This document shows positions 18 to 63,117 of a DNA stretch of 64,000 nt, piece by piece. How positions within the stretch are numbered: the stretch's first letter is position 1; each line of letters starts with the position of its first letter. The stretch spans positions 19,782,467-19,846,466 of the forward strand of contig NC_134026.1 in the NCBI RefSeq assembly GCF_964204645.1, written 5' to 3'. Origin of the DNA: Tubulanus polymorphus. Lineage: Eukaryota; Animalia; Nemertea. The position numbers and the translations under genes were made by a program. The notes under the pieces are model-generated. The model saw only the letters and a list, made by a program, of their open reading frames with translations. It had not been told where the DNA came from and did not search any database.

Positions 18-808
18 ATGGTAAAATTCTGGGCAAACCTCGTATCAAAAAACAGAGAAACACTCTCTAGTAAAACGTATTCCATCCAATATGATTTAAG
101 CACGTCACAAAATATCAATTTCAAATGGTTATCCTCTATCCAAAATATACTCCAAGAGTGTGAAATGGCTAATTTCTGGTTAGAGCGAAATTTTCCTAAC
201 GTCCAGTGTATCTATGAATCTGTAAAGCTACGACTTACTGTTCAATTTATCCAGAAATGGCACGCAGACTGTACAGCATCATTTAAAGCGTTGACTTATC
301 GTCATATTAAACCGACTTTCAATACGCTTGAGCCTGAAAATTACATCCTCTCGTTACCCACATCCTACCGCATTTCCCTCTGTAGATATAAATGTAGCAA
401 CCTTTATTTACCCATAGAATCAGGCAGGCGACTCAGAATACCTCGAGAAGAACGACTTTGTACAAATTGTAACCTCAGTGTTTTGGGGGACGAGCGTCAC
501 ACTATATTAGAATGTAGTTTTTTCCAGATACAACGCAAAAAACTAATCCCTAGAAGAGAAGATTTTGGTCAACTCCAAATTTTGAAAATATGAACTCCCT
601 TTTCTGTACAAAAAATCAAAGAAATCTGATAAATATTTCTAGATTTATTCGAATATGCTCAAATTGAGTTTTAAACATGTATAATAGAGATGTGAACTCC
701 CCACGCTGTTATTCCGTCATCTGTATTTATGTATTATTAATGTATGTTTTGTTCAATGCGAATCGTGAATTGTGAACAATAAGAATTGAATCTGAATCTG
801 AATCTGAC
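18..808 (+). mobile_element. 3' fragment of a CR1/L2-like non-LTR retrotransposon: ORF2 C-terminus (18..593), then a 3' UTR ending in (GAATCT)n at 783..808
   Basis: The ORF ends with the Cys motif RLCTNCNLSVLGDERHTILEC (C-x2-C-x9-H-x4-C) typical of CR1/L2 ORF2 C-termini. A hexamer microsatellite tail follows, as in CR1-type 3' ends. The element is truncated by the window edge. Confidence 0.55.
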
Positions 809-1989: not shown

Positions 1990-2949
1990 TCATAGAAAAC
2001 AGTAAAACGCCCTCTTAATCAGGCCAACAAATTGTGCTCTGAAATACGAACCGGCCAGACAATAAATGAAAAAATTTAAGGCATGGTTCGAGTGCTTCAA
2101 TAAAACGAAAATTCCGAAAGTTGAAGGAGAACTAACGTTTACGTTTATGAGCGATGCTTGATAGGGTAATGTTGTACTGATGAAGACGAAATTAACGCAA
2201 AGGAGTAAACGAGTCAGGTTATCGTAACGCGAATCGTCATTTTTGGCTGTTTTGTGCATTTGTTTCGCCGCTGCGCGAGATCGGTTCAGTTGTACGATTA
2301 TGATCGTATTACACGCGGATATAATAAAAAAAGGCAGTATGGAATACGCAGCCGCAAATATCCATACTTGATATTCAGTAGTGTATATTCGCCAAGCCTC
2401 TGTTGGAGCACGACATTCATATCTATCCCGGACTAGTATCAAGCCGACGCTTCCAGCTAAAGTGACGGAGTTGATGACACCGACAAATATAGAGACTGCC
2501 GAAAAGAAGTACATCGCTCGACGTACTGTCCAGATAGTTTTGGCTTTCGTCGGTTGTACTACGCATATACATCTCTCAATCGTCAATAGGACAATAATCC
2601 ACGACGAGGTTTGTTCGGCGAATCTAGTAAAAAATGTCAGCGAAATACACGACGCGTTTGACGCAGCTCGTATGTCGGGAGGAAACTGTTGCGGCCAATT
2701 AACAACGCGCAGGAATTTCTTCACCAGTAACTCTAGATTTATGTCGAGCAAATCGAAGAAAGCTAAGAACATCATTAGAATACCGGTCGAGGAATTGCGA
2801 TAGAATTTCGAAGTCGATAGAACGACAAGCGCCGAAACGTTGCCGATATTGCCCAGTATGATGATAGGTAACGCGCCGTATTTGATGGCAAAGAAATAAT
2901 TTCTGAAGAATTTGTAGTAGAAGGATTGTGTTCCGTTAAAGGATGACAT
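1990..2949 (-). CDS. intronless class-A (rhodopsin-like) GPCR, paralog A, 319 aa
   Basis: Single 319-codon ORF with 7 hydrophobic segments. DRY-like ERC follows TM3 (LTIERCICVV), NPxxY-like NFFIY sits in TM7, an ECL2 Cys is present, and the N-terminus carries N-glycosylation sites (NGT, NVS). Confidence 0.8.
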   Translation of the reverse strand: MSSFNGTQSFYYKFFRNYFFAIKYGALPIIILGNIGNVSALVVLSTSKFYRNSSTGILMMFLAFFDLLDINLELLVKKFLRVVNWPQQFPPDIRAASNASCISLTFFTRFAEQTSSWIIVLLTIERCICVVQPTKAKTIWTVRRAMYFFSAVSIFVGVINSVTLAGSVGLILVRDRYECRAPTEAWRIYTTEYQVWIFAAAYSILPFFIISACNTIIIVQLNRSRAAAKQMHKTAKNDDSRYDNLTRLLLCVNFVFISTTLPYQASLINVNVSSPSTFGIFVLLKHSNHALNFFIYCLAGSYFRAQFVGLIKRAFYCFL

Positions 2950-6735: not shown

Positions 6736-7698
6736 ATGACATCGTCAAACGGAACACAAGTTTCCGTCTTATTCACCTACTATAAAGATTACTTCTTCGT
6801 CATCAAATACGGCGCGTTACCTATCGTCATACTGGGCAATATCGGCAACGTTTCGGCTCTTGTCGTTCTATCGACTTCGAAATTCTATCGCAATTCTTCG
6901 ACCGGTATTCTAATGATGTTCTTAGCGTTCTTTGATTTGCTCGACATAAATCTGGAGTTACTCGTGAAGAAATTCCTGCGCGTTGTCAATTGGCCGCAAC
7001 AGTTTCCTCCCGACATACGAGCAGCGTCAAACGCGGCGTGTATTTCGCTGACATTTTTGAATAGGTTTACCGAACAAATTTCGTCGTGGATTATTGTCCT
7101 GTTGACGATTGAGAGATGCATATGCGTAGTACAACCGACGAAAGCCAAAACTATCTGGACTGTACGACGAGCGATGTACATCTTTTTTGTAGTCTCTATA
7201 TTAGTCGGCGGCGTAAATTCTACCATATTTGCGGGAAACGTCAGTTTGATACTAGTCCGGGGTGAATATGAATGTCGTGCTCCAACAGCTGCTTGGCGAA
7301 CATACTCCACCAAATACCGAGTATGGGTATCTGCAGCCACCTATTCGATACTGCCTTTTCTAGTCATAACCGCGTGTAATACGATTATAATCGTACAACT
7401 GAATCGATCTCGCGCAGCGGCGATACAAATGAACAAAACGGCCAAAAATGACGATTCGCGTTACGACAACCTGACTCGTTTACTGTTATCCGTTAATATC
7501 GTGTTCATCAGTACAACATTACCCTATCAAGCATCGCTTATAAACGTATCCATTCGTTCTCCTTCAACTTTCGGCATGTTCGTTTTATTGAAACACTCGA
7601 ACCATGCCTTGAATTTTTTCATCTACTGCCTGGCCGGTTCGTATTTCAGAGCCCAATTTGTTGGTCTGATAAGCAGAGCATTTTTCTGTTTTCGGTGA
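6736..7698 (+). CDS. intronless class-A GPCR, paralog B, 320 aa, head-to-head with paralog A
   Basis: Roughly 85 % aa identity to the 1990..2949 ORF with the same ERC and NFFIY motifs. About 90 bp of 5' flank, including a CCAAT box, is also duplicated. Confidence 0.8.
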   Translation: MTSSNGTQVSVLFTYYKDYFFVIKYGALPIVILGNIGNVSALVVLSTSKFYRNSSTGILMMFLAFFDLLDINLELLVKKFLRVVNWPQQFPPDIRAASNAACISLTFLNRFTEQISSWIIVLLTIERCICVVQPTKAKTIWTVRRAMYIFFVVSILVGGVNSTIFAGNVSLILVRGEYECRAPTAAWRTYSTKYRVWVSAATYSILPFLVITACNTIIIVQLNRSRAAAIQMNKTAKNDDSRYDNLTRLLLSVNIVFISTTLPYQASLINVSIRSPSTFGMFVLLKHSNHALNFFIYCLAGSYFRAQFVGLISRAFFCFR

Positions 7699-16625: not shown

Positions 16626-17376
16626 CTATAAAAATTTGAGAAAAAATTGAAATAGAAAAATAAAAGATGTAATACGTAGGCCAAGTTAGTCAAAATTATG
16701 TTATAATAACAATGTTCAAATTCACGAAATTTCACAAAATGCAGGCGATCTTCTCTGATTCAACTTGAGAAAAAGAAGACTGGCAATCGTTCGAATCATC
16801 ACAGAACCGGTAAGACCTCAATGAATTATGTACTCCCAAAAGGAAGCAAAATATCGCAGAAAAGAAAGTCTCACAAATTAATAAACTGAATAGGCCTAGA
16901 CCATCTTGGTCATATGGTAACTAGAATTCTTTAAATATATTAGTAACAGAACAATACTTTTGAATGTGATCCATTTTGAATATTCAAACTAATATCTTTA
17001 CATAACAACTGTTCCAATAACATGCAACGTACTATTTTCGATTTTTCAGGCATATTTAACTGATTTTCATTTTGTCATTGGCATACAATGTCACTGTCCA
17101 GCCTACTGCTGCAACTGCGTGAATGATACTTGTGGATGAACAAAGCTCAAATATAGTAGGATCCCCTTATTTAGAGAACTTGGAGAATTCAATTGATGTC
17201 CCCAAAAATGCTCAAATTGCATCCAAAGGCCGTAAAAGTTCTAAATCATCCGGGGGCGAACATCACACTCTCCTCCATGGAGCCGTGATACTAAACTTAG
17301 TAGGACTTAAGAACTGAGGCTGGATCCACCCCTGCTTGTTTATGCACCCCATGAACGTTTATGTACATGTACTTAC

Positions 17377-33061: not shown

Positions 33062-34171
33062 TCAAGCTTCGGTAGCGTTAAGTGCGGGTGTCGGTGATAC
33101 CGGTGTCTCTTCGGACTTTTTTGTTTTATCATTCATTCGATCTCTCAATCGGTTGTCGCTAAGAGCGCCATCTGTCGACCGAAATTGAAACTTCACGACA
33201 AACACTTCCCTTACCTTTTGACTGGTCAATGCGTAAATGAGAAAATTAACCGAATAGCTCATCTCCCATAGAATGATGGGCATTGTACCGCACGCAAACT
33301 TCAATACTTGCTGTAAGCGTGGGAGCGCGGCTATTAGAGTGACAGCAACGATGGTAGGGAATAGTAGTACGAGAAAAACGAGCATGACGAAGAGCATGAG
33401 ACGAGTGACCTTGTAATTGGTCAGCCTGATCGCTGCCATCGGTGTTCTAGCACTGCGCCTACTCAGAACCGCGATGATGCTAACGCAACAGACTGTTATG
33501 ATGATGAAAGGCAGGTAGCCGATCATCAGAATTCCGAGAACGTTCGAGTCATAACGCCGACTGGGCATTCTACAGCCAGCGCCGTCGTTCATCCACGGCC
33601 GCAGCGACGCATCGATCGACATGACACACAGCACGCCGAGAACCGTGCAACAGGTGGCAGCACACGCCGATCGACGGCGACATAAACGTCGAGCTGACAT
33701 CGGGAAACAGACGACGATGAAACGCTCGACGCTGATCAACGTTACCAACCAACTGCTCAACGCGGCAAAATAAAAACTTGTGTATTTCATTACGGTTTTC
33801 GTCAAGCCGCCGCTGACCGCGATCACCAATGGTCCGCCGGAGAGCGCGCCAACAAAATTGATCCAGAAAATACCGTGCAGAATCAAATTACAGCCGTCGC
33901 TGACGGCTAAAGCCGCCAGGTACACGGCGAACGAGCGCTCGCGCATTTTCGTCATTGCCATAACAACGAACGATATGATGTTCGACATCAGACCGAAGAT
34001 CATGAAGACCGAAGTGAAAACGATTTGTACCCATTTTATCCATGGGTTCAGCGTGTTCACCAAATCCACTGGATAGACGAAATAAAAGTAGCAGTACGCT
34101 CCTTCGAGGAGATCACTTTCATTCGCGGAATTCGAAGTCAAATTCATCGTTTTTGCATTGTATATATTCAT
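33062..34171 (-). CDS. intronless class-A GPCR, 369 aa, nested in a TEP1 intron on the same strand
   Basis: 7TM ORF with ERF (ISVERFIVV) after TM3, NFLIY in TM7 and LFPT in TM6. These are the same non-canonical motif variants seen in the 5' GPCR pair. N-terminal N-glycosylation sites are present. Confidence 0.75.
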   Translation of the reverse strand: MNIYNAKTMNLTSNSANESDLLEGAYCYFYFVYPVDLVNTLNPWIKWVQIVFTSVFMIFGLMSNIISFVVMAMTKMRERSFAVYLAALAVSDGCNLILHGIFWINFVGALSGGPLVIAVSGGLTKTVMKYTSFYFAALSSWLVTLISVERFIVVCFPMSARRLCRRRSACAATCCTVLGVLCVMSIDASLRPWMNDGAGCRMPSRRYDSNVLGILMIGYLPFIIITVCCVSIIAVLSRRSARTPMAAIRLTNYKVTRLMLFVMLVFLVLLFPTIVAVTLIAALPRLQQVLKFACGTMPIILWEMSYSVNFLIYALTSQKVREVFVVKFQFRSTDGALSDNRLRDRMNDKTKKSEETPVSPTPALNATEA

Positions 34172-35990: not shown

Positions 35991-36065
<75 letters not shown>

Positions 36066-36066
36066 T

Positions 36067-36098
<32 letters not shown>

Positions 36099-48180: not shown

Positions 48181-49380
48181 AGTATCAGCATCCCTCTCAG
48201 TTGGCAAACACAGTGTAAACATGCTCAAATGCCACTTTTAGGTAAATGGAGCCTCATACATGTTCTAGATAGCCTGAAAAATCATGAACATACCTTCAAA
48301 ATGAACTCAGGATCGGATGATGTGACATCTTCAGCGAGTTTAATCAGCTTTAATCTCTGTTCGTCTTGTTGATCCTTGTAATTCGGAACGTGAATCAACG
48401 AGGAACTAACAGCATTGATCAATGTACGCTGTAATCAAACATAGAAAACATTGTCTATAGTATCATCAATTTTTACTCCAATATTTTTTCTAGTTGTCCT
48501 TCACAATGGGGTTGAGCACAGCAGGGGTACCTGAGCTCAGCAACAGATGCTTTGCCTATCAGTCGGTTAACTTTGAATATGATTTCTAGGCTCCCGCATC
48601 CAAATGTCATTGGACAAGCCATGAACAAAATAATTTTCTAGCCTTTGGTCTAGTTTTCATCGATAACAGCCTGAGATCGGCTTTTTTAATGTTTGGTATA
48701 GTTAGCATCAAAAATAATAATAGCCCCTTTCCACTGAGCTGTTGATAAGTTAAACTTCATGCAGCTTTGAACAGGAAAGTTTTTTGTATGCATCTGAATG
48801 ACAGAACTGATGTTTCTGAACCAATTGACAGTGGTAGAGAGATCCAGATTTGAGGTGCTTTAACTAAGAATGAATAGCCGCTGAACAGCTTCAAATCGAT
48901 ACTATGAGGTGATAGACGGTCCTAAGAACTAGAAGATCGAAATCAGCCTATTCATTTCTGTGAAAAGTTGATTACCGGTAGATTCTCATTGAAATGTAAA
49001 CGATATTTTGCGTGCAGAAGATATACAGGGCATAATGGGTAACACACAGTTGCAGGATTGAAAAAGGACTGAGGGCCCAGGAGAGCAGTGCGTTCAATGG
49101 CACAATTCACCGATCCTTACTAAACTTTCAGGGCCCAGCTGCTTAACGAAAACTAACTTAGTTACTGATGTCTGCTATTAATTGATAGGTGCCAGCATCT
49201 TTCAATGGATATAAAAACTAATCACTAAATCACTAAATCCATCACTGATTTATGCATCGCACTGTTGTATAGATGTACTGAAAGATGTACCATACTTAGG
49301 AGGAGTCAGTTCCAATCATCACCACATTATCAACCGGTTGATTCATACCAACCTATAAGCAATGCGATTCATAGCAAAAA

Positions 49381-50061
49381 TTACGAATTTACCTTTGATT
49401 CTTCCAAAGTTTCCCCGAAAGCAGGTTCGAGCGGCATAGAAATAATCGGCAATTCTTCGGCGACGAGAAATTTTTCATCCGCAAATGCCTCATCGGTCAA
49501 ATCATAATACGGCATCGGATGAACGATATTATCGTGAACGGTGTAACTTTCTCGTTTTTCCGTCTTCAAACCGGCGGCGCCTGAGGATCGTACGGCAGAC
49601 GGCTTGAATAGCGGCGAAGACGACCGACCAGACAACGACGTCGTCAACAAAGACTTGTAAGTCGATGATGAGCCCGTAAGCGTCGATGATAAATTCCGAG
49701 TAAGATTTACGCCGCTCAATCTCAGACTATTTCCCGAAATCGAACTTCCCGATAGTAAATTCGATTTTGTCGTCAAACTGCTCTTCCCTGATAAACAAGT
49801 TGTTAAACTACTTTTCCCTAACGACGCAGATCCGACATTAGCACCTCTCAAGCCATTCGAGTCAGGACTTGGTATTTTATAGAGGAGCGGATTTTTCAAA
49901 CTGCCGAGAGATGTCAAAGGTTTTGAAGCGACGTCGCTCTTTCTTCCAGAGACATTTTCCGACCTTGAACGGCTACTGCCTTTTAGCGGAACTTTGCTAA
50001 CGGAAAAACTCGCTTTGGTTCTTTTATCTGCTGAAGAAAAAAAAACTTGGTACTCATGCAA
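49381..50061 (-). CDS. Ser-rich 226-aa ORF ending in a consensus donor; candidate 5' coding exon of the TEP1-like gene, or a separate disordered protein
   Basis: 681-nt ORF in AT-rich DNA, M at 50061, ending ...FGETLEESK|gtaaat in phase 0. This is phase-compatible with the exon at 47275..47436. No homology recognised. Confidence 0.35.
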   Translation of the reverse strand: MHEYQVFFSSADKRTKASFSVSKVPLKGSSRSRSENVSGRKSDVASKPLTSLGSLKNPLLYKIPSPDSNGLRGANVGSASLGKSSLTTCLSGKSSLTTKSNLLSGSSISGNSLRLSGVNLTRNLSSTLTGSSSTYKSLLTTSLSGRSSSPLFKPSAVRSSGAAGLKTEKRESYTVHDNIVHPMPYYDLTDEAFADEKFLVAEELPIISMPLEPAFGETLEESKVNS

Positions 50062-50815
50062 TTCCAGTTTAAAGTTTAACTCCTATAATCGATTTCATTT
50101 CTTCAATTTTTCAGTTTATTCTAAATTGATTTAGCAGAGTTAGGCCTAATCCTTTTTGCAAAGCCCCTGATTCACCTGCAAAATCGCTATAACAAGGATT
50201 CAAACCTTACAGAATTGGCAACTCGGAAAACCTAACTTACCAGACATAAGTGTCGAAGGCATAGTGCTGGTTAGCTGTAGGGAACATTTCGTGCTCACTA
50301 CCGTACTGTCACACTTTGTATCCATAACAGGAGCCATGTTGCCCTATTCGAACAAGAAAAAATAATTTCCAAGTTTGGCAAAAGTGAAAAATAGTTGAAT
50401 CTAGGCGACCAGGGACATGATGCCCATATGGGAAGTGGTTAGAAATACTCAACAATCCGACAATTTCAATATTCAATGCCCCTAGTGAGCATATATAATA
50501 CCAAATGACCTTGAAACTCACCAAATCATAGAATCTGCAATTTTTACAATTGATTGTGGTAGAAAAATATGCCTAATTTTCGCACTACTTATTGTTAAGT
50601 TTTGTGTGCTAAGATTGGTTTATATGGAAGAGCTCAGATGACATTCGAGATATGAGATATAACATACGAGATATGAGGAGATGCAACATACGAGATACGA
50701 CATAAATGGCATACAAGATACAACTTATTTACAGTACAGGTGTCCATCCGCCAGCGCCTCCTCGCTATATGTTTTTCAATATTCACTGCATATAAATCGT
50801 TTAATATTGATGCGT

Positions 50816-51423: not shown

Positions 51424-52682
51424 TGTCTCAGAAATCAAAATTCTAAAAAAAACTCTGCAGCCGAAACATTCCGGCCCTCTTAGGCCCCATCTCCGCTGTT
51501 TGATACTTCTTCTAATTTACGATTGTATCAAAGACCCCTTGAATTCTTGAATCCTGAAACAACCCGGGAACGGGCCGTACATCGGTCTGGTCAATCCAGA
51601 TTAATAGAACTCAAGCGTGCTCTCTCTCAATTGTAGGTTTGTTATCCCCAAGCTAAATTCCATCCCTACCAAGCTACGGGGCAGACTAGTCCACTAGACC
51701 AGCCGTTGAGAGTCGAGACTGGCCAGTTTTTGTATCTAACCGCTGGGCATGCGGCACTGTCTTTCTATACTATGGGTAGGTGTGATTGCGGCTTAGTAAA
51801 ACTATTTGGCTATCTTTTTTTTCTGACATCTTTCATGAAAAGGGCCAATGGCTGAAACTGAATACCTTTTATTATAATCGGAGAATCCAATCTAAGAGAT
51901 CATTCTCATCAATTATCATGGTCAGTTTTAAAATTGTTTATTGAAAAAACTACAGGAACCACATAAATAAGTCTTTAGCATAACACAACACCTCTTACAT
52001 CCGTAAAGATAAGAGATCTATGGAATCATGAAGTAAAATTTTTCGAGGGAATAAGCGAACCTCCGGAACTTTGCTTATGGTGCGTTTGCACCCGTCGCAA
52101 AAAACATTGTGATAAACAAACTCAGCTGCACTCTGATAGTGCAAGGATCTGGGATTCTGATATTTGATGAATAATTCATTCAATACATTTATGTTATCTT
52201 AGTATTTCTAATTCATATCCATGTTTCAATTCATTCATTGAAATTCATAGTACACTAAACAAATTCCCTGTGTGTCGGACTTTAAAAAAAAACTCTTCGG
52301 TCATCGGCATTCGTAATATATACATAGGCCTACATAAGATAAAAATCTGCTAATGTACAAATCAAAAGAATCTAAAATCGAGAATTTATTTATTCAAACA
52401 ATCTAAAATATAAAATACACGACGTTTTGATCTCACCCTAGAGACCGTCGCCGGGTAGTGGGTTTTTATCTTATCCATTCACCATGTTTGGGTGTGGTTA
52501 TCGTAATATACATACATCTTTCATTCTTCATCGAAAACCCTCGATCGAACGCGAAGTTTAACTTGACTAGGCGCAATTCTTAGGACCAGCAATTTTACTG
52601 GGGCCATATATGGCTAACTCAAGAATTTGAATTTTGTACACTCGAAAATGGATTTTGGAATTTGAGGGGTTTTGATTATTCT

Positions 52683-53421
52683 AATACCTAGCAGTTGGTC
52701 CTCAAACAACGTCTAGGGCAAAGTGCACATATAAGGTTAGGACGAGGCTTTGAGCGTCTATTTCACCATTTAAAACACCATCAACTTACCTCAAACTGAT
52801 TGTTCTGTAATCAGATGGAAGTTAACTATTGTTTGGGCATAAATTTAAAATCCTAAGTAGCTTGTGACGATCGTAGCAACTCAAAACTTTTGAATAGTCG
52901 CCTCAAAAAATAGTTGAAGTGAAGCAACATAACAAATATAGCGGCTTTTCGTGTTGCATGATGGGAGGGTAAATTACGGATTCAGACTTAAACTTGGACT
53001 GACATTGATGCCAATGCAGATATTATTCTTGTTTCAAATTCTTAAGGTAAAATTCGCCAAAATAAATGCTTTTATCAACAAAAAATAACATTTAGAGTAA
53101 TTTTAGAGAGACACATTGAATTTTCACATCTTATCAATTTAGTCTGTATTGGAAATCCCGATTGTGGCAATCAATTCAATTAAAATCAAATCAATAAATT
53201 CTCCGGTTCTGGATTTAAATCATCAAAAGTATTATTATAAAACATGTTTTCAAAGTCAAAAAGGTAACTAATTAATTTATTTGAGTACAAAGGTTTGATT
53301 TGACACTAAAATCAGTTGTTGCATTGCAATAAACAGGATCGAGTTAACCTCTATATGTCAGTTTGGCGTCAGACGTTGTAGGGAACCGTAACAACGACTG
53401 GTATTCGGACTAGTGTCTATT
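52683..53421. repeat. left arm of a ~740-bp inverted repeat that encloses the SUPV3L1 5' region
   Basis: Reverse-complement match to 55989..56730 over about 740 bp, e.g. cttaaggtaaaattcgccaaaataaatgc versus gcatttattttggcgaattttacc. Confidence 0.8.
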
Positions 53422-54222
53422 TCAACCTGACTTGAGAGCATTCCGGGTGGCCTAGCTCAGTCAGTATTGTTACTACATACCTGATAAAGGTCTTATTAGG
53501 ACCAGAATGCATTGGCAGCTGACCTTAAATATACCCCAGTGAAGTTCATTACTTGTTCCTTATTCCTTATTCCGTTACTTATTCAGAATTCAACTCCCAA
53601 TAAGGAACAAGTAACATGTTACTTGTTCCTTATTCAGATTTTCTTGTTACTTATTCAGAATTCATCTCCCAATAAGGATAAGTATAAGTAACATGTTACT
53701 TGTTCCTTGTTCCTTATTCAGATTTTCGACTTTACCGGTTCAATTTTCGTTACTTATTGAGAATTCATCTCCCAATAAGGAGCAAGTTACTTGTTCCTTA
53801 TTGGGCGGTGAATTCTGAATAAGTAACAAGAAAATCTGATTAAGGAACAAGTAACAAGTGTTACTTGTTCCTTATTGGGAGATGAATTCTGAATAAGTAA
53901 CGAAAATTGAACCGGTAAAGACGAAAATCTGAATAAGTAATATTCATGTCTCCATGCCTACCAACTGAAATTTGATACGTAGGCATGGAAACATATTGTT
54001 AAACTTTCAAATCATGGAGTCACTTCTCTTCATTTAACCCCTTTCAGTGAAGACTTTTTGGATATCCTTCAATACAGTTTCAAATGGATTAAAAAATGAT
54101 GATTTAGGTTGACTGCCTGTCTTTTCTGGTCCTAATAAGACCTTTATCAGGTATGTACTACCAAAAATGAGCGAGCTAGGCCACCCGGAATGCTTTCAAG
54201 TCAGGTTGAAATAGACATTAGG
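53422..54222. mobile_element. Foldback-like element nested at the inner end of the left arm
   Basis: About 90-bp terminal inverted repeats (TIRs) (tgtctatttcaacctgacttgagagcattccgggtggcctagctc ... reverse complement). The interior is built from palindromic subrepeats ggaacaagtaacatgttacttgttcc / cagaattcatctcccaataagg. Confidence 0.75.
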
Positions 54223-54661
54223 TTTTGGAGGATCAAGGGGCTGTAGCCCCGGCGTATTCGGAGCCCAACTTGAATCACCGGACCCTTGGTGTCTCACTCT
54301 AGAGTGGCCCAGCTTCGCCGAAGCGAGCACCGGCGCGGCTGGCAAGAATGCCAGGTGTAGAGAGCTTATAGTGGTTGATCGACAGGGGGTCTCACAAATT
54401 ACGAAAGACGATGCGATACGGTTTCGAAATCACTGGTGTTGATCAGAGCCGTTGACCTGTCCACTTACTGACTAATGCCCGCTGGGCAGCCCACCGAATC
54501 AGCCACCTTAGATAACCGAAGTTTTCCCAGGTAAAAACTGGAGCACTGAATACGTAGTCACAAACCTGCAATTTGACAATTCCAATTTGACTGATTCTCA
54601 CTTGACAGCTCACTGACTGACATCGACAACGACGGTGACTGTCACTGCGCCCCTCCAGTCA

Positions 54662-55208
54662 CTAATGTCTATTTATTAATTGATGAGACCTGTTTTTCTG
54701 GGATATTTTGCTTACTTTTTGGGGTACATACCTCATTTATGTCTTAACAGAATGCCAAAAATCGCGGACAACAACTGAATATCCGATATATTTCCAGTTC
54801 TGTACCAATTAGATGGATTGGCAAAAAGACTCCTTAAGTCCAGTTGAATGAGAGAGAAAATCTTCCATTTTGTCAAATTTCTTGGATTTGAACATTGTTA
54901 CCATGCCTACGCCACCCTGATTTAGTTGTTGAGACCCCACAAGAAAAATAACTTCATTTCGTAGGCATGGTGACAATGTAAAAATTCAAGAAATTTGACA
55001 AAATGGAGGATTTTCTCTCTCATTCAACTGGACTTAAGGAGTCTTTTTGCCAATCCATCTAATTGGTACAGAACTGGAAATATATCGGATATTCAGTTGT
55101 TGTCCGCGATTTTTGGCATTCTGTTAAGACATAAATGAGGTATGTACCCCAAAAAGTAAGCAAAATATCCAAGAAAAACAGGTCTCATCCATTAATAAAT
55201 AGACATTA
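54662..55208. mobile_element. near-perfect hairpin element (about 250-bp arms, about 50-bp loop) 360 bp upstream of the SUPV3L1 ATG
   Basis: 54662..54910 is the reverse complement of 54960..55208 almost base for base. Both ends start gtctattt, like the neighbouring foldback element. Confidence 0.8.
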
Positions 55209-55444
55209 GTCAGCTTAGAACTGTATTACAATTTACATGGCACTTGAAAATTGATGAGAGTCTAGCTATAAAATGTTCTTACCCTCTTGATCCTACTACA
55301 GACGATATGAATTACACCACCACTACATCAGCCGCACAGTACGACTCACAGCACTGTCAATCATCAGTGCCGGCGCACTTTCGGTATTTCAGGTACATTG
55401 CGCAACATTCACTTCCGCGTTATTGCGTCCGTCCCGTAGTCCGA

Positions 55445-55461
55445 AACAAGATGGCTGCGCC
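55445..55461 (+). promoter_or_regulatory. YY1-type AAGATGGC core-promoter motif about 110 bp upstream of the SUPV3L1 ATG
   Basis: aacAAGATGGCtgcgcc closely matches the AAGATGGCGGC initiator/YY1 element common at housekeeping-gene transcription start sites. Confidence 0.4.
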
Positions 55462-55567
55462 CATGCACACGATGAAAAATCGAAAATTTATGTAATTTGT
55501 CAAGTTTTTGGCTAGAATACGTCGATCCAACCCCATCTATCGACTCGGTTGAATAGGAAAAGGCAAA

Positions 55568-55983
55568 ATGTCGACGTCAATTCTGAAATTTCACAACGGC
55601 AAGATTCTCGGAAGCCGTCAGTTTCGGCTATCGAGATGGGCGAGGATAATTCACAATGTCAATGCTTCGACTTCTTTTAGCATCAAATCCTCGTTATTGA
55701 CTTTGACTCAAGGACGTGTGTTTTCCGTGTTAACTTCGGCCGTGAAACTTCGGCCTCGAAATTGTCATTTGTGCTCGGTTAATAAGCACGTTGGGCCGTC
55801 TCAAATTTCGCGAAGAACAGTGCGCTATAAATCGGAATCAAAAGACGTCAATTCGTTATTTCAGCCAGCGCCATTTTCAGCTCAGCAATCAGTGACCGAT
55901 GTTGAGGTTGGCGCCGATCTGGCTGGACCTCTGAAAAAAGGTACTTTTCTAAAATTTTCTGAGATTATGCAACCTAAGACTGA
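55568..55983 (+). CDS. SUPV3L1: SUPV3L1 (SUV3 mitochondrial RNA helicase) exon 1 with the start codon and presequence
   Basis: MSTSILKFHNGKILGSRQFRLSRWARIIH is basic and hydroxylated like a mitochondrial targeting sequence. ...SLFQPAPFSAQQSVTDVEVGADLAGPLKKGTFLKFSEIMQPKT resembles human [46 protein letters not shown]. Donor GA|gttagg. Confidence 0.8.
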
Positions 55984-55988
55984 GTTAG

Positions 55989-56730
55989 GCTAGTCTGAAT
56001 ACCAGTCGTTGTTACGGTTCCGTACAACGTCTGACGCTAAAGTATCATATAGAGGTTAACTCCTGTTAATTGCAATGCAACAACTGATTTTAGTGTCAAA
56101 TCAAACCTTTGTACTAGAATAAATAAATTAGTTACCTTGTTGACTTTGAAAACTTGTTTTATAATAAATTTTTTAAATCGCGAACCGGAGAATTTATTGA
56201 TTTGATTTGAATTGAATTGATTGCCACTATCGGGATTGCCAAGTCGGACTAAATTAATAAAATGTGAAAATTCAATATGTCTCTCTAAAATTACTCTAAA
56301 TGTTATTTTTTGTTGATAAAACGCATAAATTTTGGTTAATTTTAACCTGTATAATTTGAAACAAGAATAATATCTGCATTGTCACCAAGTTTAAGTTTGA
56401 ATCCGTAATTTACACTCCCATCATGCACCACGAAAAGCCGCCATATTTGTTATGTTGCTTCACTTCAACTGTTTTTTGAGGCGACAAGTCAAAAGTTTTG
56501 AGCTACTACGATCGTCATAAGCTACTTAGGATTACAAATTTATGCACAATCAATAGTTAACTTCCATCTGATTACAGAACAGTCAGTTTGAGGTAAGTTG
56601 ATGGTGTTTTAAGGGGTGAAATAGACGCTCAAAGCCTCGTCCCTCAAAATGAGGGACGAAAATTAACCTTATATGAGCACTTTCGCCCTAGACGTTGTTT
56701 CAGGAACAACGGTTAGGTACTAGACTAGAG
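55989..56730. repeat. right arm of the ~740-bp inverted repeat; it begins 5 bp after the SUPV3L1 exon-1 donor
   Basis: Reverse complement of 52683..53421. It carries a 22-bp palindromic insertion near 56650. Confidence 0.8.
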
Positions 56731-57040
56731 TTAGGCCTATGTGTTGAGGAAGTCTCTCTACAAGCCGACACATAGCTCAAGTAATGACATTATCTCTATA
56801 GCCACTAACTATCTCGAGCATTATTTTGTCTAAGTTTCATTTAATGAACAATTTCATGAGAGATTTAAGATATTTTAGACGTACAAACCATTTAATTAGT
56901 AAAGTACATTTAATTTGTCCTGGTTTGACTGTATAAAGATTTGCCCTCTGTTTGAATTACTGCTGGTAACTATTCGGCTGAAAAGTATGCTTTATTTTCC
57001 CAGATCAATTGTTGAGGTTGTTGAACCAGTTTTACCGTAG

Positions 57041-57081
57041 AACGGAGGTAAAGAAGTTAGCTGCGGAATGCGGACTGGACA
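57041..57081 (+). CDS. SUPV3L1: SUPV3L1 exon 2 (41 bp)
   Basis: ETEVKKLAAECGLD resembles human KLGADYGLD. Acceptor tttaccgtag| and donor A|gtacgt. Phase-consistent with both neighbours. Confidence 0.65.
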
Positions 57082-57389: not shown

Positions 57390-57497
57390 ATCGGTTGTTC
57401 CATCAGGCATACATTAGCTTTCGCAAGTATTGCGTCGAAATGGAAGGACTTCCGGCTGCATTGCATGTAACGCTTAGTGATATTATCCAAGGTGCTG
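57390..57497 (+). CDS. SUPV3L1: SUPV3L1 exon 3
   Basis: NRLFHQAYISFRKYCVEMEGLPAALHVTLSDIIQGA resembles human ARLFHQAFISFRNYIMQSH..IVLNDICFGA. Acceptor tttctttcag| and donor G|gtaagt. Confidence 0.85.
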
Positions 57498-59905: not shown

Positions 59906-60017
59906 GGTACGTTGTGTGATCTTGTGACCGGTGAAGAAAGGATTTATGCTGATCCAGAAGGCAATGCATCACCTCACGTGGCTTGTACTGTGGAAATGTG
60001 TAGCGTCATCACACCTT
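59906..60017 (+). CDS. SUPV3L1: SUPV3L1 exon 6
   Basis: [37 protein letters not shown] resembles human [37 protein letters not shown]. Donor T|gtaagt. Confidence 0.9.
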
Positions 60018-60082: not shown

Positions 60083-62412
60083 CTCAAAATGGGGTCCCAA
60101 AATTAATTCAGATATACGCAATGCATAGGCCTAAACTCAATTCATGATATAGCCCTATATACATGATATCAAAAATACATAAAGATCTTGATGTAAACTA
60201 CCTAGTAATATTTGGCATAAATCTTTAATTCAATGTAATTCGCTGTAATTAAATTGTAATAAGCTGTAATAGCTGTAATAACCATATAAAACATACGTAA
60301 TATTTGGCATAAATCTTTGATTCAATGTAATTCGCTGTAATTAAAGTGTAATAAGCTGTAATTGCTGTAATAACCATATAAAAAATACGTAATATTTGGC
60401 ATAAATCTGTAATTCAATGTAATTCGCTGTAATCGAGGTGTAATAAGCTGTAATAGCTGTAATAACCAGATAAAACATAGTAATATTTGGCATAAATCTG
60501 TAATTCAATGTAATTCACTGTAATCGAGGTGTAATAAGCTGTAACAGCTGTAATAACCAGATAAAACCTAGTAATATTTGGCATAAATCTGTAATTCAAT
60601 GTAATTCGCTGTAATCGTGGTGTAATAAGCTGTAACAGCTGTAATAACCAGATAAAACCTAGTAATATTTGGCATAAATCTGTAATTCAATGTAATTCGC
60701 TGTAATTAAAGTGTAATAAGCTGTAATAGTTGTAATAACCAGATAAAACCTAGTAATATTTGGCATAAATCTGTAATTCAAATTGAATTAGGCCTACAGA
60801 TTTATGCCAAATATTACTAGGTTTTATCTGGTTATTACAACTATTACAGCTTATTACACTTTAATTACAGCGAATTACATTGAATCAATGTAATTCGCTG
60901 TAATTAAAGTGTAATAAGCTGTAACAGCTGTAATAACCAGATAAAACCTAGTAGTATTTGGCATAAATCTGTAATTCAATGTAATTCGCTGTAATTAAAG
61001 TGTAATAAGCTGTAATAGTTGTAATAACCAGATAAAACATACATAATATTTGGCATAAATTTGTAATTCACTGTAATTCGCTGTAATTAAAGTGTAATAA
61101 GCTGTAATAGCTGTAATAACCAGATAAAACCTAGTAATATTTGGCATAAATCTGTAATTCAATGTAATTCGCTGTAATCGAAGTGTAATAAGCTGTAATA
61201 GTTGTAATAACCAGATAAAACATACGTAATATTTGGCATAAATCTGTAATTCAATGTAATTCGCTGTAATTAAAGTGTAATAAGCTGTAATAACCAGATA
61301 AAACCTAGTAATATTTGGCTTAAATCTGTAATTCAATGTAATTCGCTGTAATCGAGGTGTAATAAGCTGTAATAGTTGTAATAACCAGATAAAACATACG
61401 TAATATTTGGCATAAATTTGTAATTCAATGTAATTCGCTGTAATTAAAGTGTAATAAGCAGTAATAGCTGTAATAACCAGATAAAACCTAGTAATATTTG
61501 GCTTAAATCTGTAATTCAATGTAATTCGCTGTAATCGAGGTGTAATAAGCTGTAATAGTTGTAATAACCAGATAAAACATACGTAATATTTGGCATAAAT
61601 TTGTAATTCAATGTAATTCGCTGTAATTAAAGTGTAATAAGCTGTAATAGCTGTAATAACCAGATAAAACATACGTAATATTTGGCATAAATTTGTAATT
61701 CAATGTAATTCGCTGTAATTAAAGTGTAATAAGCTGTAATAGCTGTAATAACCAGATAAAACCTAGTAATATTTGGCATAAATCTGTAATTCAATGTAAT
61801 TCACTGTAATCGAAGTGTAATAAGCTGTAACAGCTGTAACAACCAGATAAAACCTAGTAATATTTCACATAAATCTGTAATTCAATGTAATTCGCTGTAA
61901 TTAAAGTGTAATAAGCTGTAATAGTTGTAATAACCAGATAAAACCTTGTAATATTTGGCATAAATCTGTAATTCAATGTAATTTGCTGTAATTAAAGTGT
62001 AATAAGCTGTAATAGCTGTAATAACCAGATAAAACCGGCAACCTGTAAAACCTGTTATTACAGTCATTACAGCTTATTACACCCTAATTACAGCGAATTA
62101 CATTTAATTACAGATTTATGCCAAATATTACTGGTTTTATCTGGCTATTACAGCTATTACAGCTTATTACACCTCGATTACAGTGAATTACATTGAATTA
62201 CAGATTTGCGCAAAACCTTTCATTTCTCTTCAGAAAGTTACTGTTTATTAGGCCTATAAACATACATGCATAGGCTATTTGATGTATGCCTGTATAATGA
62301 ATTGAGTTTAGGCCTATGCTAAATAAGGCTAAATAAAGCCAGGGACTTTATTACAAATTACATGTAATATGAAAAAAAAAGTTAATTTTGGGACCCCATT
62401 TTAAGCCACAAA
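60083..62412. mobile_element. Foldback-like element filling SUPV3L1 intron 6
   Basis: Imperfect terminal inverted repeats (ggggtcccaaaatt...gcataggcctaaactcaattcat versus reverse complement at 62260..62412). Inverted terminal satellite units at 60781..60900 and 62040..62215 bracket the internal array. Confidence 0.65.
60198..62040 (+). repeat. about 20 tandem copies of a 91-bp satellite unit with ctgtaat sub-repeats
   Basis: taatatttggcataaatctgtaattcaatgtaattcgctgtaattaaagtgtaataagctgtaatagctgtaataaccagataaaacatacg recurs with period 91..92. The 225-aa ORF at 60995..61672 is a repeat artefact. Confidence 0.9.
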
Positions 62413-63039: not shown

Positions 63040-63117
63040 ATGATGTGGCAGTAATTGATGAAATCCAAATGGTGAATGAACGACAGCGAGGATGGGCATG
63101 GACGAGGGCTTTATTAG
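63040..63117 (+). CDS. SUPV3L1: SUPV3L1 exon 7 (DEIQ box)
   Basis: [26 protein letters not shown] resembles human [26 protein letters not shown]. Acceptor ttctcattcag| and donor G|gtttgt. Confidence 0.9.

What the first reader, a model, noticed from the sequence alone, without database searches (positions are those of the whole stretch)
52683..56730. SUPV3L1 promoter and first coding exon sit in the loop of a 4-kb inverted-repeat structure; the exon-1 donor is 5 bp from the right arm
Two about 740-bp arms (52683..53421 and 55989..56730) are reverse complements. Between them lie a foldback element with 90-bp terminal inverted repeats (53422..54222) and a near-perfect 250-bp-arm hairpin (54662..55208). 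Then come the SUPV3L1 core promoter (AAGATGGC at 55445) and the whole exon 1 (55568..55983). Intron 1 starts at 55984 and the right arm at 55989. This could be a composite foldback-type transposon that captured or now frames the 5' end of an essential mitochondrial helicase gene, or a long cruciform-prone region. Either would be expected to affect transcription and stability of the locus.
Basis: seen in the sequence. Interest (0 to 1): 0.7.

Follow-up and report, generated by a model that had tools for sequence, protein, structure and literature searches.

The report
Separate transposon insertions flanking SUPV3L1 exon 1
The 4-kb "inverted repeat" around the start of this mitochondrial helicase gene is two old, separately inserted copies of one small non-coding transposon, with two other small hairpin-type transposons between them, which is an ordinary pattern near animal genes and not a single mobile or cruciform-forming structure.

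Summary
The repeats are real. Two ~737-bp copies (52677-53412 and 55991-56727) are reverse complements, with 91.9% identity over aligned bases and 86.5% counting 7 indels. Between them lie an 806-bp foldback element (53413-54218) and a 542-bp near-perfect hairpin element (54665-55206).

Each long arm is a complete element. Each has its own ~70-bp imperfect terminal inverted repeats and its own flanking target-site duplication: a perfect 9 bp (GAGTTAGGC) for the intronic copy, and 7 of 9 (GGTTTTG..) for the upstream copy once the nested foldback is removed. The outer flanks of the pair share nothing, and the duplications are not exchanged. So there is no composite transposon, no capture of exon 1, and no past inversion.

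The two hairpin elements share the termini ATGTCTATTT. They sit in C-TA-G sites and are related to each other and to a degraded half copy at 16684-16895.

The gene is a genuine SUV3/SUPV3L1 orthologue, but its exon-1 donor is at 55941, not 55984. That puts it 50 bp from the arm, not 5.

With a 2.6-kb spacer and about 13% divergence, cruciform extrusion by the long pair is not expected.

Verdict: an ordinary cluster of MITE-type insertions, probably in a nemertean genome. Interest is low.

The parts
52668..52676 (.). Left target-site duplication of the upstream long element (GGTTTTGAT)
   Evidence: Matches GGTTTTGGA at 54221-54229 at 7 of 9 positions once the nested element is removed. An exact repeat of 7 or more occurred in 1.7% of random placements.
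52677..53412 (-). Upstream copy of the ~737-bp non-coding DNA transposon (the 'left arm'), inverted relative to the intronic copy
   Evidence: Homology to the reverse complement of 55991-56727 ends sharply at both ends. It has its own imperfect terminal inverted repeats (TATTCTAATACC... / ...GGTATTCGGACTA plus the subterminal ACAACGTCT block). The longest arm-family ORF, from the intronic copy, has no Pfam match.
53413..54218 (.). 806-bp foldback MITE (FB1), inserted at the TA that ends the upstream long element. TA lies on both sides (53411-12 and 54219-20). Termini are GTGTCTATTT / AAATAGACAT.
   Evidence: Terminal inverted repeats of about 98 nt at 92%. The interior is a palindromic array of 72-103-bp subrepeats. 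DNA fold z = -27. Removing it restores the long element's terminal TA and its target-site duplication.
54221..54229 (.). Right target-site duplication of the upstream long element (GGTTTTGGA)
54230..54662 (+). Unique, GC-richer (53%) upstream sequence with no repeat, RNA-family or protein-family match. Presumed ancestral 5' flank.
   Evidence: No other copy in the window. No Rfam hit even at E up to 1. No Pfam match on its ORFs. Composition.
54665..55206 (.). 542-bp near-perfect hairpin MITE (FB2). Termini are ATGTCTATTT / AAATAGACAT, with TA on both sides (54663-64 and 55207-08), in an ACTAGT context.
   Evidence: Arms of 251 nt at 97% with a 48-nt loop; 240 of 247 positions match within the element. 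DNA fold -284 kcal/mol, z = -52. Related to the 3' third of FB1 (E 1e-6) and to a half copy at 16684-16895 (E 1e-13).
55209..55567 (+). Proximal upstream region and 5' UTR of SUPV3L1. Contains TATAAAA at 55267-55273 and AAGATGGC at 55448-55455.
   Evidence: Unique sequence. CpG observed/expected is 1.2, rising to 1.5 in exon 1. Motif count. No transcription start data available.
55568..55940 (+). SUPV3L1 coding exon 1: a presequence-like N-terminus (no acidic residue before position 90, 16 Arg+Lys in the first 88) and the first 23 residues of the Suv3_N domain
   Evidence: The donor AAG|GTACTT at 55941 is phase 1.
55941..57003 (+). Intron 1, 1063 bp. Of this, 746 bp are the transposon plus one target-site duplication, so the ancestral intron was about 317 bp.
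55982..55990 (.). Left target-site duplication of the intronic long element (GAGTTAGGC).
   Evidence: Perfect 9/9 match to 56728-56736, exactly at the homology boundaries. A repeat of 9 or more occurred in 0.23% of random placements.
55991..56727 (+). Intronic copy of the ~737-bp non-coding DNA transposon (the 'right arm')
   Evidence: It has its own terminal inverted repeats TAGTCTGAATACC... / ...GGTACTAGACTA.
56728..56736 (.). Right target-site duplication of the intronic long element (GAGTTAGGC)
57004..57081 (+). SUPV3L1 exon 2 (DQLLRLLNQFYRRTEVKKLAAECGLD)
57390..57497 (+). SUPV3L1 exon 3 (NRLFHQAYISFRKYCVEMEGLPAALHVTLSDIIQGA)
16684..16895 (.). Degraded half copy (one arm) of the FB2 family elsewhere in the window
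   Evidence: nhmmer E 1.7e-13 and 2.5e-12. BLAST 80-83% identity. Sequence read.

Best explanation
The region is a cluster of four independent cut-and-paste insertions of short non-autonomous DNA transposons (MITEs). They lie in the 5' flank and first intron of a native SUPV3L1 (SUV3) gene.

Two insertions are copies of one ~737-bp family. One landed about 2.9 kb upstream of the start codon and the other 41 bp into intron 1, and they happen to point in opposite directions. That alone creates the '4-kb inverted repeat'. Each made its own 9-bp target-site duplication, the length typical of Mutator/Foldback-type transposases.

Later, an 806-bp foldback MITE inserted into the TA at the very end of the upstream copy. 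A related 542-bp hairpin MITE inserted 362 bp upstream of the start codon. Both have TA on each side in a C-TA-G context, as for IS630/Tc1/mariner-type integration.

Shown here: the element boundaries, the terminal repeats, the target-site duplications, the nesting order, the absence of coding capacity, and the gene structure.

Inferred: which transposase superfamilies were responsible, and that the elements are now inert passengers. Taking the TE sequence out leaves about 0.8 kb of unique 5' flank and a 317-bp intron 1. I infer that the gene keeps its own promoter in the 359 bp between the hairpin element and the start codon.
For: - Homology between the arms ends abruptly at 52677/53412 and 55991/56727.
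- Each arm carries its own terminal inverted repeats.
- Target-site duplications pair within each copy: 9/9 for the right copy, at exactly the homology boundaries, and 7/9 for the left copy after excising FB1. Across copies the matches are 4-5 of 9, and there is no reverse-complement match. In 3000 random placements with the same search freedom, 9 bp or more occurred 0.23% of the time and 7 bp or more 1.7%.
- Removing FB1 together with one TA restores the upstream copy's terminal ...GGACTA and brings its duplication next to it.
- FB1 and FB2 share the 10-nt termini [G/A]TGTCTATTT and are related internally (nhmmer E about 1e-6). A third, degraded relative lies 38 kb away (E 1e-13), so that family is dispersed.
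- The arms differ by 58 substitutions and 7 indels (K2P 0.086). This rules out a false-duplication assembly artefact and indicates old insertions.
- No ORF from the arms or the unique block matches Pfam.
- Exon 1 encodes Suv3_N residues that continue into exon 2.
- A 9-bp duplication is the hallmark of Mutator/Foldback-type elements, including their MITE-like derivatives, and nesting of such elements is documented (PMC3169594).
Against: - Only two copies of the long element were seen. There is no third copy in the 64-kb window, and there are no relatives in the searchable public collections. Multi-copy, dispersed status for that family is therefore inferred from its structure, not shown.
- The left copy's duplication is imperfect: 7 exact bases, then 2 mismatches.
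- Because TA is palindromic, a TA duplication cannot be told apart from 2 extra bases of terminal repeat. FB2's flanks also allow a 3-bp TCA or a 5-bp AGTCA direct repeat.
- No autonomous partner was found in the window, so the superfamily assignments rest on duplication length alone.
- No transcript data exist for the start site or the splice sites.
Confidence: 0.85

Rival explanations
1. A single composite or foldback-type transposon whose long terminal repeats are the two 737-bp arms. It would have captured the promoter and exon 1 of SUPV3L1, or would now be able to mobilise them.
For: Two same-family copies in inverted orientation do bracket the segment. Transposases can in principle act on the outer ends of two nearby copies; aberrant transposition of this kind is discussed in PMC2775673.
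Against: - The outer flanks, GGTTTTGAT and GAGTTAGGC, share no duplication: the best exact repeat is 3 bp, which is chance level.
- Each arm is flanked on both of its own sides by its own duplication, and each has both termini.
- Exon 1 is continuous with the conserved Suv3_N domain in exon 2, so the segment sits in its native place.
- The promoter-plus-exon-1 segment has no second copy in the window.
Confidence: 0.03
2. The arms are an inverted segmental duplication that is not a transposon, or an assembly artefact (a false inverted duplication).
For: The same window contains a genuine inverted gene duplication, the GPCR pair at 1990-2949 and 6736-7698, 88% identical. Inverted duplications therefore do occur in this genome. 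No third copy of the arm was found.
Against: - The copies end exactly at terminal inverted repeats and are flanked by direct repeats of 9 bp and 7/9 bp. Segmental duplication does not produce that.
- 58 substitutions and 7 indels between the copies are incompatible with a false duplication of one read set.
Confidence: 0.05
3. The wide inverted repeat is a working structure: a cruciform or stem-loop, an invertible promoter-exon cassette, or a source of double-stranded RNA that regulates SUPV3L1.
For: In long single-stranded DNA, inverted repeats up to 30 kb apart and up to about 25% divergent can still anneal and cause rearrangements in yeast (PMC10164571). The arms share exact blocks of up to 47 bp.
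Against: - In duplex DNA, a 2.6-kb spacer and about 13% divergence (counting indels) all but abolish extrusion and inverted-repeat-stimulated recombination (PMC10164571 introduction).
- The target-site duplications are not exchanged, so no inversion by ectopic recombination has become fixed here (diagnostic from PMC2775673; test).
- One arm lies upstream of the presumed promoter and the other in the intron. They would not normally be in one transcript.
- An inversion would separate exon 1 from the rest of an essential gene.
Confidence: 0.04

Closest known systems
MITE-like non-autonomous members of the Mutator/Foldback group (for example Tm1 MITE-like elements of root-knot nematodes, PMC3169594; MULE-derived MITEs in general)
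   Same: The ~737-bp arms are short and non-coding. They have terminal inverted repeats, 9-bp target-site duplications with no obvious target consensus, and another element nested inside one of them.
   Different: No sequence similarity to any described element was tested or found. The terminal repeats are only about 70 bp and imperfect, and they are not built from tandem subrepeats. No matching transposase is known. Copy number is unknown.
TA-targeting MITEs of the IS630/Tc1/mariner type (Stowaway-like). Insertion of IS630 into CTAG with duplication of the central TA is from my own knowledge.
   Same: FB1 and FB2 have TA on both sides, both within C-TA-G. They share 10-nt termini, are small and non-coding, and fold into long hairpins.
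   Different: FB2 is almost entirely one 251-nt palindrome, and FB1 has an internal array of inverted subrepeats. A TA duplication cannot be proven for a palindromic dinucleotide. No transposase partner has been identified.
Galileo / BuT5 copies at Drosophila inversion breakpoints (PMC2775673, PMC3698922)
   Same: Two same-family, oppositely oriented DNA-transposon copies with secondary nested insertions bracket a chromosomal segment.
   Different: In Drosophila the target-site duplications are exchanged and the copies are chimeric, which proves an inversion by ectopic recombination. Here each copy keeps its own matched duplication, so no inversion occurred. The segment here is 2.6 kb and holds the 5' end of an essential gene.
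Drosophila Foldback (FB) elements
   Same: FB1 and FB2 are hairpin-forming elements, and FB1 has internal repeated subunits.
   Different: FB elements make 9-bp duplications, and their long terminal repeats are arrays of short tandem repeats. FB1 and FB2 show TA flanks, and the subrepeats lie in the interior.

Membership tests
MITE / non-autonomous class II transposon (the 737-bp arms) | Terminal inverted repeats at both ends of each copy | tested here: met
   Both copies start with TA[G/T]TCT..TACC and carry the subterminal ACAACGTCT...ATATA.AGGTTA block in inverted orientation at both ends. The repeats are imperfect, about 70 bp.
MITE / non-autonomous class II transposon (the 737-bp arms) | Target-site duplication flanking each copy | tested here: met
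   Right copy 9/9 (GAGTTAGGC). Left copy 7/9 after removal of nested FB1. Null frequencies are 0.23% and 1.7%.
MITE / non-autonomous class II transposon (the 737-bp arms) | Small size and no coding capacity | tested here: met
   736 and 737 bp. The longest ORF (114 aa) has no Pfam match.
MITE / non-autonomous class II transposon (the 737-bp arms) | Many dispersed copies in the genome | tested here: inconclusive
   Only the two copies occur in 64 kb. The source genome is not searchable. Metagenome and viral scans gave only chance hits or none.
Mutator/Foldback superfamily (arms) | Target-site duplication of 8-10 bp, usually 9 bp | tested here: met
   9 bp for the right copy. Criterion taken from PMC3169594. 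A few other superfamilies also make 8-9 bp duplications, so this feature is compatible with the superfamily but not specific to it.
Mutator/Foldback superfamily (arms) | Mobilised by a MULE-type transposase whose own element has matching termini | not testable with these tools
   There is no transposase ORF in the window and no access to the rest of the genome.
Tc1/mariner-type (Stowaway-like) MITE (FB1, FB2) | TA target-site duplication | tested here: inconclusive
   TA flanks both elements. But TA is palindromic, and FB2 also allows TCA or AGTCA repeats. TA is the only reading that fits both elements and also restores the upstream arm.
Tc1/mariner-type (Stowaway-like) MITE (FB1, FB2) | Multiple related copies sharing termini | tested here: met
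   FB1 and FB2 share [G/A]TGTCTATTT termini and internal similarity (E about 1e-6). A half copy lies at 16684-16895 (E 1e-13).
Composite transposon / single long-TIR element spanning 52677-56727 | One target-site duplication shared by the two outer ends | tested here: not met
   The outer flanks match at 4 of 9 positions, and the best exact repeat within ±6 bp is 3 bp.
Segment inverted by ectopic recombination between transposon copies | Exchanged (reverse-complement) target-site duplications between the two copies | tested here: not met
   Reverse-complement matches across copies are 2 of 9. Within-copy direct matches are 9/9 and 7/9. Diagnostic from PMC2775673.
Cruciform-prone palindrome | Closely spaced (about 20 bp or less), near-identical arms | tested here: not met
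   The long pair has a 2578-bp spacer and is 86.5% identical counting indels. FB2 meets the identity criterion (97%) but has a 48-nt spacer. Thresholds from PMC10164571.
SUV3 / SUPV3L1 helicase | Suv3_N helical domain followed by a DEXQ-box helicase domain with GPTNSGKT and DEIQ motifs | tested here: met
   PF18114 2.1e-45 and PF22527 1.3e-54. The invariant G-P-T-N-S-G-K-T and D-E-I-Q columns are present. The C-terminal domains lie beyond the end of the window.

The most novel reading that the evidence does not exclude
The two oppositely oriented same-family copies might still act together. One possibility is an occasional substrate for inversion or fold-back rearrangement when the region becomes single-stranded. 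The other is a transposase using their outer ends, so that the promoter and first exon of an essential mitochondrial helicase gene form a structurally polymorphic or co-mobilisable cassette in natural populations. Nothing seen here supports this. The fixed configuration is the ancestral one, and only population long-read data could exclude rare events.
Probability: 0.03. Interest if true: 0.45.

Novelty: new member of a known kind. Interest (0 to 1): 0.12.

Why it matters
This finding matters little. It shows that a large inverted repeat around a gene start can come simply from two independent insertions of one MITE family. It also shows that target-site duplications are enough to distinguish that case from a composite transposon, an inversion or an artefact.

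Practical uses:
- It defines two or three uncharacterised MITE families in what is probably a nemertean genome, a phylum whose transposons are barely described.
- It corrects the exon 1 / intron 1 boundary of SUPV3L1.
- It gives exact predicted empty-site sequences for presence/absence genotyping.

Tried and rejected
- Exact-protein look-ups, intended to fetch allelic or orthologous contigs, all failed with 'not on record'. I tried the exon-1 ORF, three intronless GPCR ORFs from the window, and the two Tubulanus polymorphus GPCR hits. No orthologous or haplotype comparison was therefore possible.
- Two viral-contig scans (one arm block, one FB1 terminal repeat) found nothing.
- Protein searches with SUPV3L1 and TEP1 gave only 50-70% identical hits from many phyla and no protein longer than about 760 aa. 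The Tubulanus orthologues needed to fetch the syntenic locus were not obtained.
- Rfam at gathering thresholds and ARAGORN found nothing in the window. At permissive E-values, only sub-threshold matches to plant MIR hairpin families fell on FB1 and FB2. These reflect any long hairpin and are not family membership.
- I considered whether the GC-richer block 54230-54662 is a SINE or an exon. It has no repeat, RNA or Pfam match, so it remains 'unique flank'.
- I considered 3-bp (TCA) and 5-bp (AGTCA) duplications for FB2 and TAG for FB1. I kept TA because it is the only reading that fits both elements.


Full report
**Observation**

- The repeat finder reports the long pair as collinear blocks of 258, 150, 114, 73, 48 and 46 nt at 85-93% complementarity. 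It also reports a 251-nt, 97% hairpin with a 48-nt loop, and a 119-nt, 86% terminal repeat pair around 53410-54221.
- BLAST joins the long pair into one 761-column alignment at 86.5%.
- A global alignment with generous flanks shows the homology starting and stopping abruptly at 52677/53412 and 56727/55991.
- Excluding gaps, the two copies are 91.9% identical over 713 columns: 58 substitutions, 7 indel events, K2P 0.086.
- Folded as single-stranded DNA, the hairpin element gives -284 kcal/mol (z = -52) and the foldback element -235 kcal/mol (z = -27).

The structural part of the finding is therefore confirmed, with boundaries shifted by a few bases.

**The gene**

A spliced model built from open frames on the + strand matches Pfam Suv3_N (2e-45) and DEXQc_Suv3 (1e-54). 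It aligns to SUPV3L1/SUV3 proteins of many animals at 56-71% identity, with the GPTNSGKT and DEIQ motifs invariant.

The start codon at 55568 follows an in-frame stop. It opens a presequence-like N-terminus with no acidic residue before position 90 and 16 Arg+Lys in the first 88 residues.

Joined to the acceptor at 57004, it shifts the frame and hits a stop. The donor AAG|GTACTT at 55941 (phase 1) gives ...GPLKK|DQLLRLLNQFY..., which aligns without a gap to seven homologues. The donor is thus 50 bp from the first base of the intronic repeat copy, not 5 bp.

Exon 1 also encodes the first 23 residues of the conserved Suv3_N domain, so it is native to the gene and not transposon cargo.

**Anatomy of the repeats**

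Each long arm is a complete element.
- Both begin with TA[G/T]TCT..TACC. Both carry the same subterminal block (ACAACGTCT...ATATA.AGGTTA) in inverted orientation at their two ends.
- The intronic copy (55991-56727) is flanked by a perfect 9-bp direct repeat, GAGTTAGGC, at exactly the homology boundaries (55982-55990 and 56728-56736).
- The upstream copy (52677-53412) is preceded by GGTTTTGAT. Its other end abuts the 806-bp foldback element.
- That foldback element (53413-54218) has TA on both sides. Removing it with one TA restores the terminal ...GGACTA of the long element and places GGTTTTGGA next to it, a 7-of-9 match.

It recovers 9 bp for the right copy at offset 0/0, 7 bp for the left copy after excision, and only 3 bp for the outer ends of the pair. 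In 3000 random placements, 9 bp or more occurred in 0.23% and 7 bp or more in 1.7%. Cross-copy comparisons give 4-5 of 9 in direct orientation and 2 of 9 as reverse complement.

**What the duplications exclude**

- A composite or long-TIR transposon spanning the whole 4 kb would carry one duplication at its outer ends. It does not.
- An inversion generated by ectopic recombination between the two copies would leave exchanged duplications, the diagnostic used for Galileo in Drosophila buzzatii (PMC2775673). They are not exchanged.
- A false duplication in the assembly would give near-identical copies without duplications. These differ at 58 sites and by 7 indels.
- A plain inverted segmental duplication would not end at terminal inverted repeats with flanking direct repeats. 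The window does hold one real example of such a duplication, the GPCR gene pair at 1990-2949 / 6736-7698.

The simplest account is two independent insertions of one non-autonomous DNA transposon family in opposite orientations.

**The two inner elements**

FB1 (53413-54218) and FB2 (54665-55206) share the ten terminal bases [G/A]TGTCTATTT. Both sit between TA dinucleotides in a C-TA-G context. nhmmer shows that one FB2 arm is related to the 3' third of FB1 (E about 1e-6) and to a degraded half copy at 16684-16895 (E about 1e-13). This family is therefore demonstrably dispersed.

FB1 has an interior array of 72-103-bp subrepeats in direct and inverted order. FB2 is essentially one palindrome, with 240 of 247 positions matching.

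TA is palindromic, and FB2's flanks also permit TCA or AGTCA repeats. The TA duplication is therefore the reading that fits both elements, not a proven one.

None of the elements or the unique block between them has a Pfam match. Rfam gives only sub-threshold hits to plant MIR hairpin families on FB1 and FB2, as any long hairpin would.

**Reconstruction**

Transposon-derived bases make up 2843 of the 4060 bp between 52677 and 56736. Removing them leaves about 0.8 kb of unique sequence between the upstream insertion site and the start codon, and a 317-bp intron 1.

The order of events is partly fixed, because FB1 inserted after the upstream long element. FB2, whose arms are 97% identical, may be the youngest. 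The unique 359 bp before the start codon has the highest CpG observed/expected ratio of the region (1.2, rising to 1.5 in exon 1). It holds a TATAAAA at 55267 and AAGATGGC at 55448. That motif occurs 8 times in the window against 2.2 expected, and no tool here can test promoter function.

**Surroundings and source**

Upstream, on the minus strand, lies a TEP1-like gene (TROVE 3e-35, DUF4062) whose 5' coding exon ends near 50082. The elements therefore occupy a head-to-head intergenic region of about 5.5 kb.

An intronless GPCR at 33062-34171 is 69% identical to a Tubulanus polymorphus protein and has almost no other relatives. The window probably comes from a nemertean; this is an inference.

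No orthologous or allelic locus could be fetched. Scans of metagenome and viral collections for the elements gave only chance hits or nothing.

**Mechanism and consequences**

Shown: four bounded elements, their duplications and their nesting.

Inferred:
- The long family was moved by a transposase that makes 9-bp staggered cuts. Mutator/Foldback-type is the usual source of 9-bp duplications and includes MITE-like derivatives (PMC3169594).
- The hairpin family was moved by a TA-targeting IS630/Tc1/mariner-type enzyme.

For stability, the long pair has a 2578-bp spacer and about 13% divergence. In yeast, lengthening the spacer from 12 to 20 bp already cuts inverted-repeat-induced recombination about 40-fold, and divergence reduces it exponentially (PMC10164571). 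Only in long single-stranded DNA do such distant, diverged repeats interact. FB2 is the only piece with real hairpin potential, and its 48-nt loop tempers that.

An inversion between the arms would cut exon 1 off an essential gene and would be removed by selection. The intact duplications show that none has been fixed.

**Comparison with known kinds, and novelty**

The elements behave like ordinary MITEs inserted near a gene. The families themselves are undescribed, as far as these tools can tell, so this is a new member of a known kind.

The features that define a composite transposon, an inversion breakpoint pair or a cruciform-prone palindrome were each tested and not met.

The most novel reading still open is that the pair occasionally rearranges or co-mobilises the promoter-exon cassette in populations. 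It has no support here and I give it about 3%.

**Verdict**

Interest is low (0.12).

Noticed in passing
window 1990-2949 (-) and 6736-7698 (+): Two intronless rhodopsin-type GPCR ORFs (319 and 320 aa) form a 936-nt, 88% inverted duplication 3.8 kb apart. This is a gene-level inverted duplication, unlike the transposon pair.
   Followed up: no
window 60200-62036: A 91/183-bp satellite array of about 20 copies at 87-88% identity lies inside a SUPV3L1 intron, between the exon ending near 60016 and the exon starting at 63041. It has local switches of unit orientation, for example arms at 60685-60784 / 60786-60885.
   Followed up: no
window ~38473-50082 (-): A TEP1-like gene (TROVE domain 3e-35, DUF4062 2.8e-5) runs head-to-head with SUPV3L1. 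A 154/306-bp tandem repeat lies within it at 43396-44001.
   Followed up: partly
window 33062-34171 (-): An intronless 369-aa GPCR is 69% identical to a Tubulanus polymorphus protein, and only two database relatives had E below 1e-5. This suggests the window comes from a nemertean.
   Followed up: partly
window 1492, 1512, 13707, 26282, 29539, 31377, 41410, 55448: AAGATGGC occurs 8 times against 2.2 expected (1 of 100 shuffles reached 8). This includes a tandem pair 20 bp apart at 1492/1512. The flanking sequences share no longer motif.
   Followed up: partly
window 16684-16895: A degraded single-arm relative of the FB2 hairpin element, lacking the partner arm.
   Followed up: yes
window 56644-56663: The intronic long copy carries a 20-bp insertion relative to the upstream copy. 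It creates a small local palindrome (GTCCCTCAAAATGAGGGAC).
   Followed up: no
window 35993-36093: A (TA)50 microsatellite.
   Followed up: no
window 18-593 (+): A 191-aa ORF at the window edge with a Cys/His-rich C-terminus and no Pfam match. It may be a retroelement remnant.
   Followed up: partly
database behaviour: The hit lists for SUPV3L1 and TEP1 contained no protein longer than about 760 aa, although full-length TEP1 is far longer. Close full-length orthologues may therefore have been missed rather than being absent.
   Followed up: no
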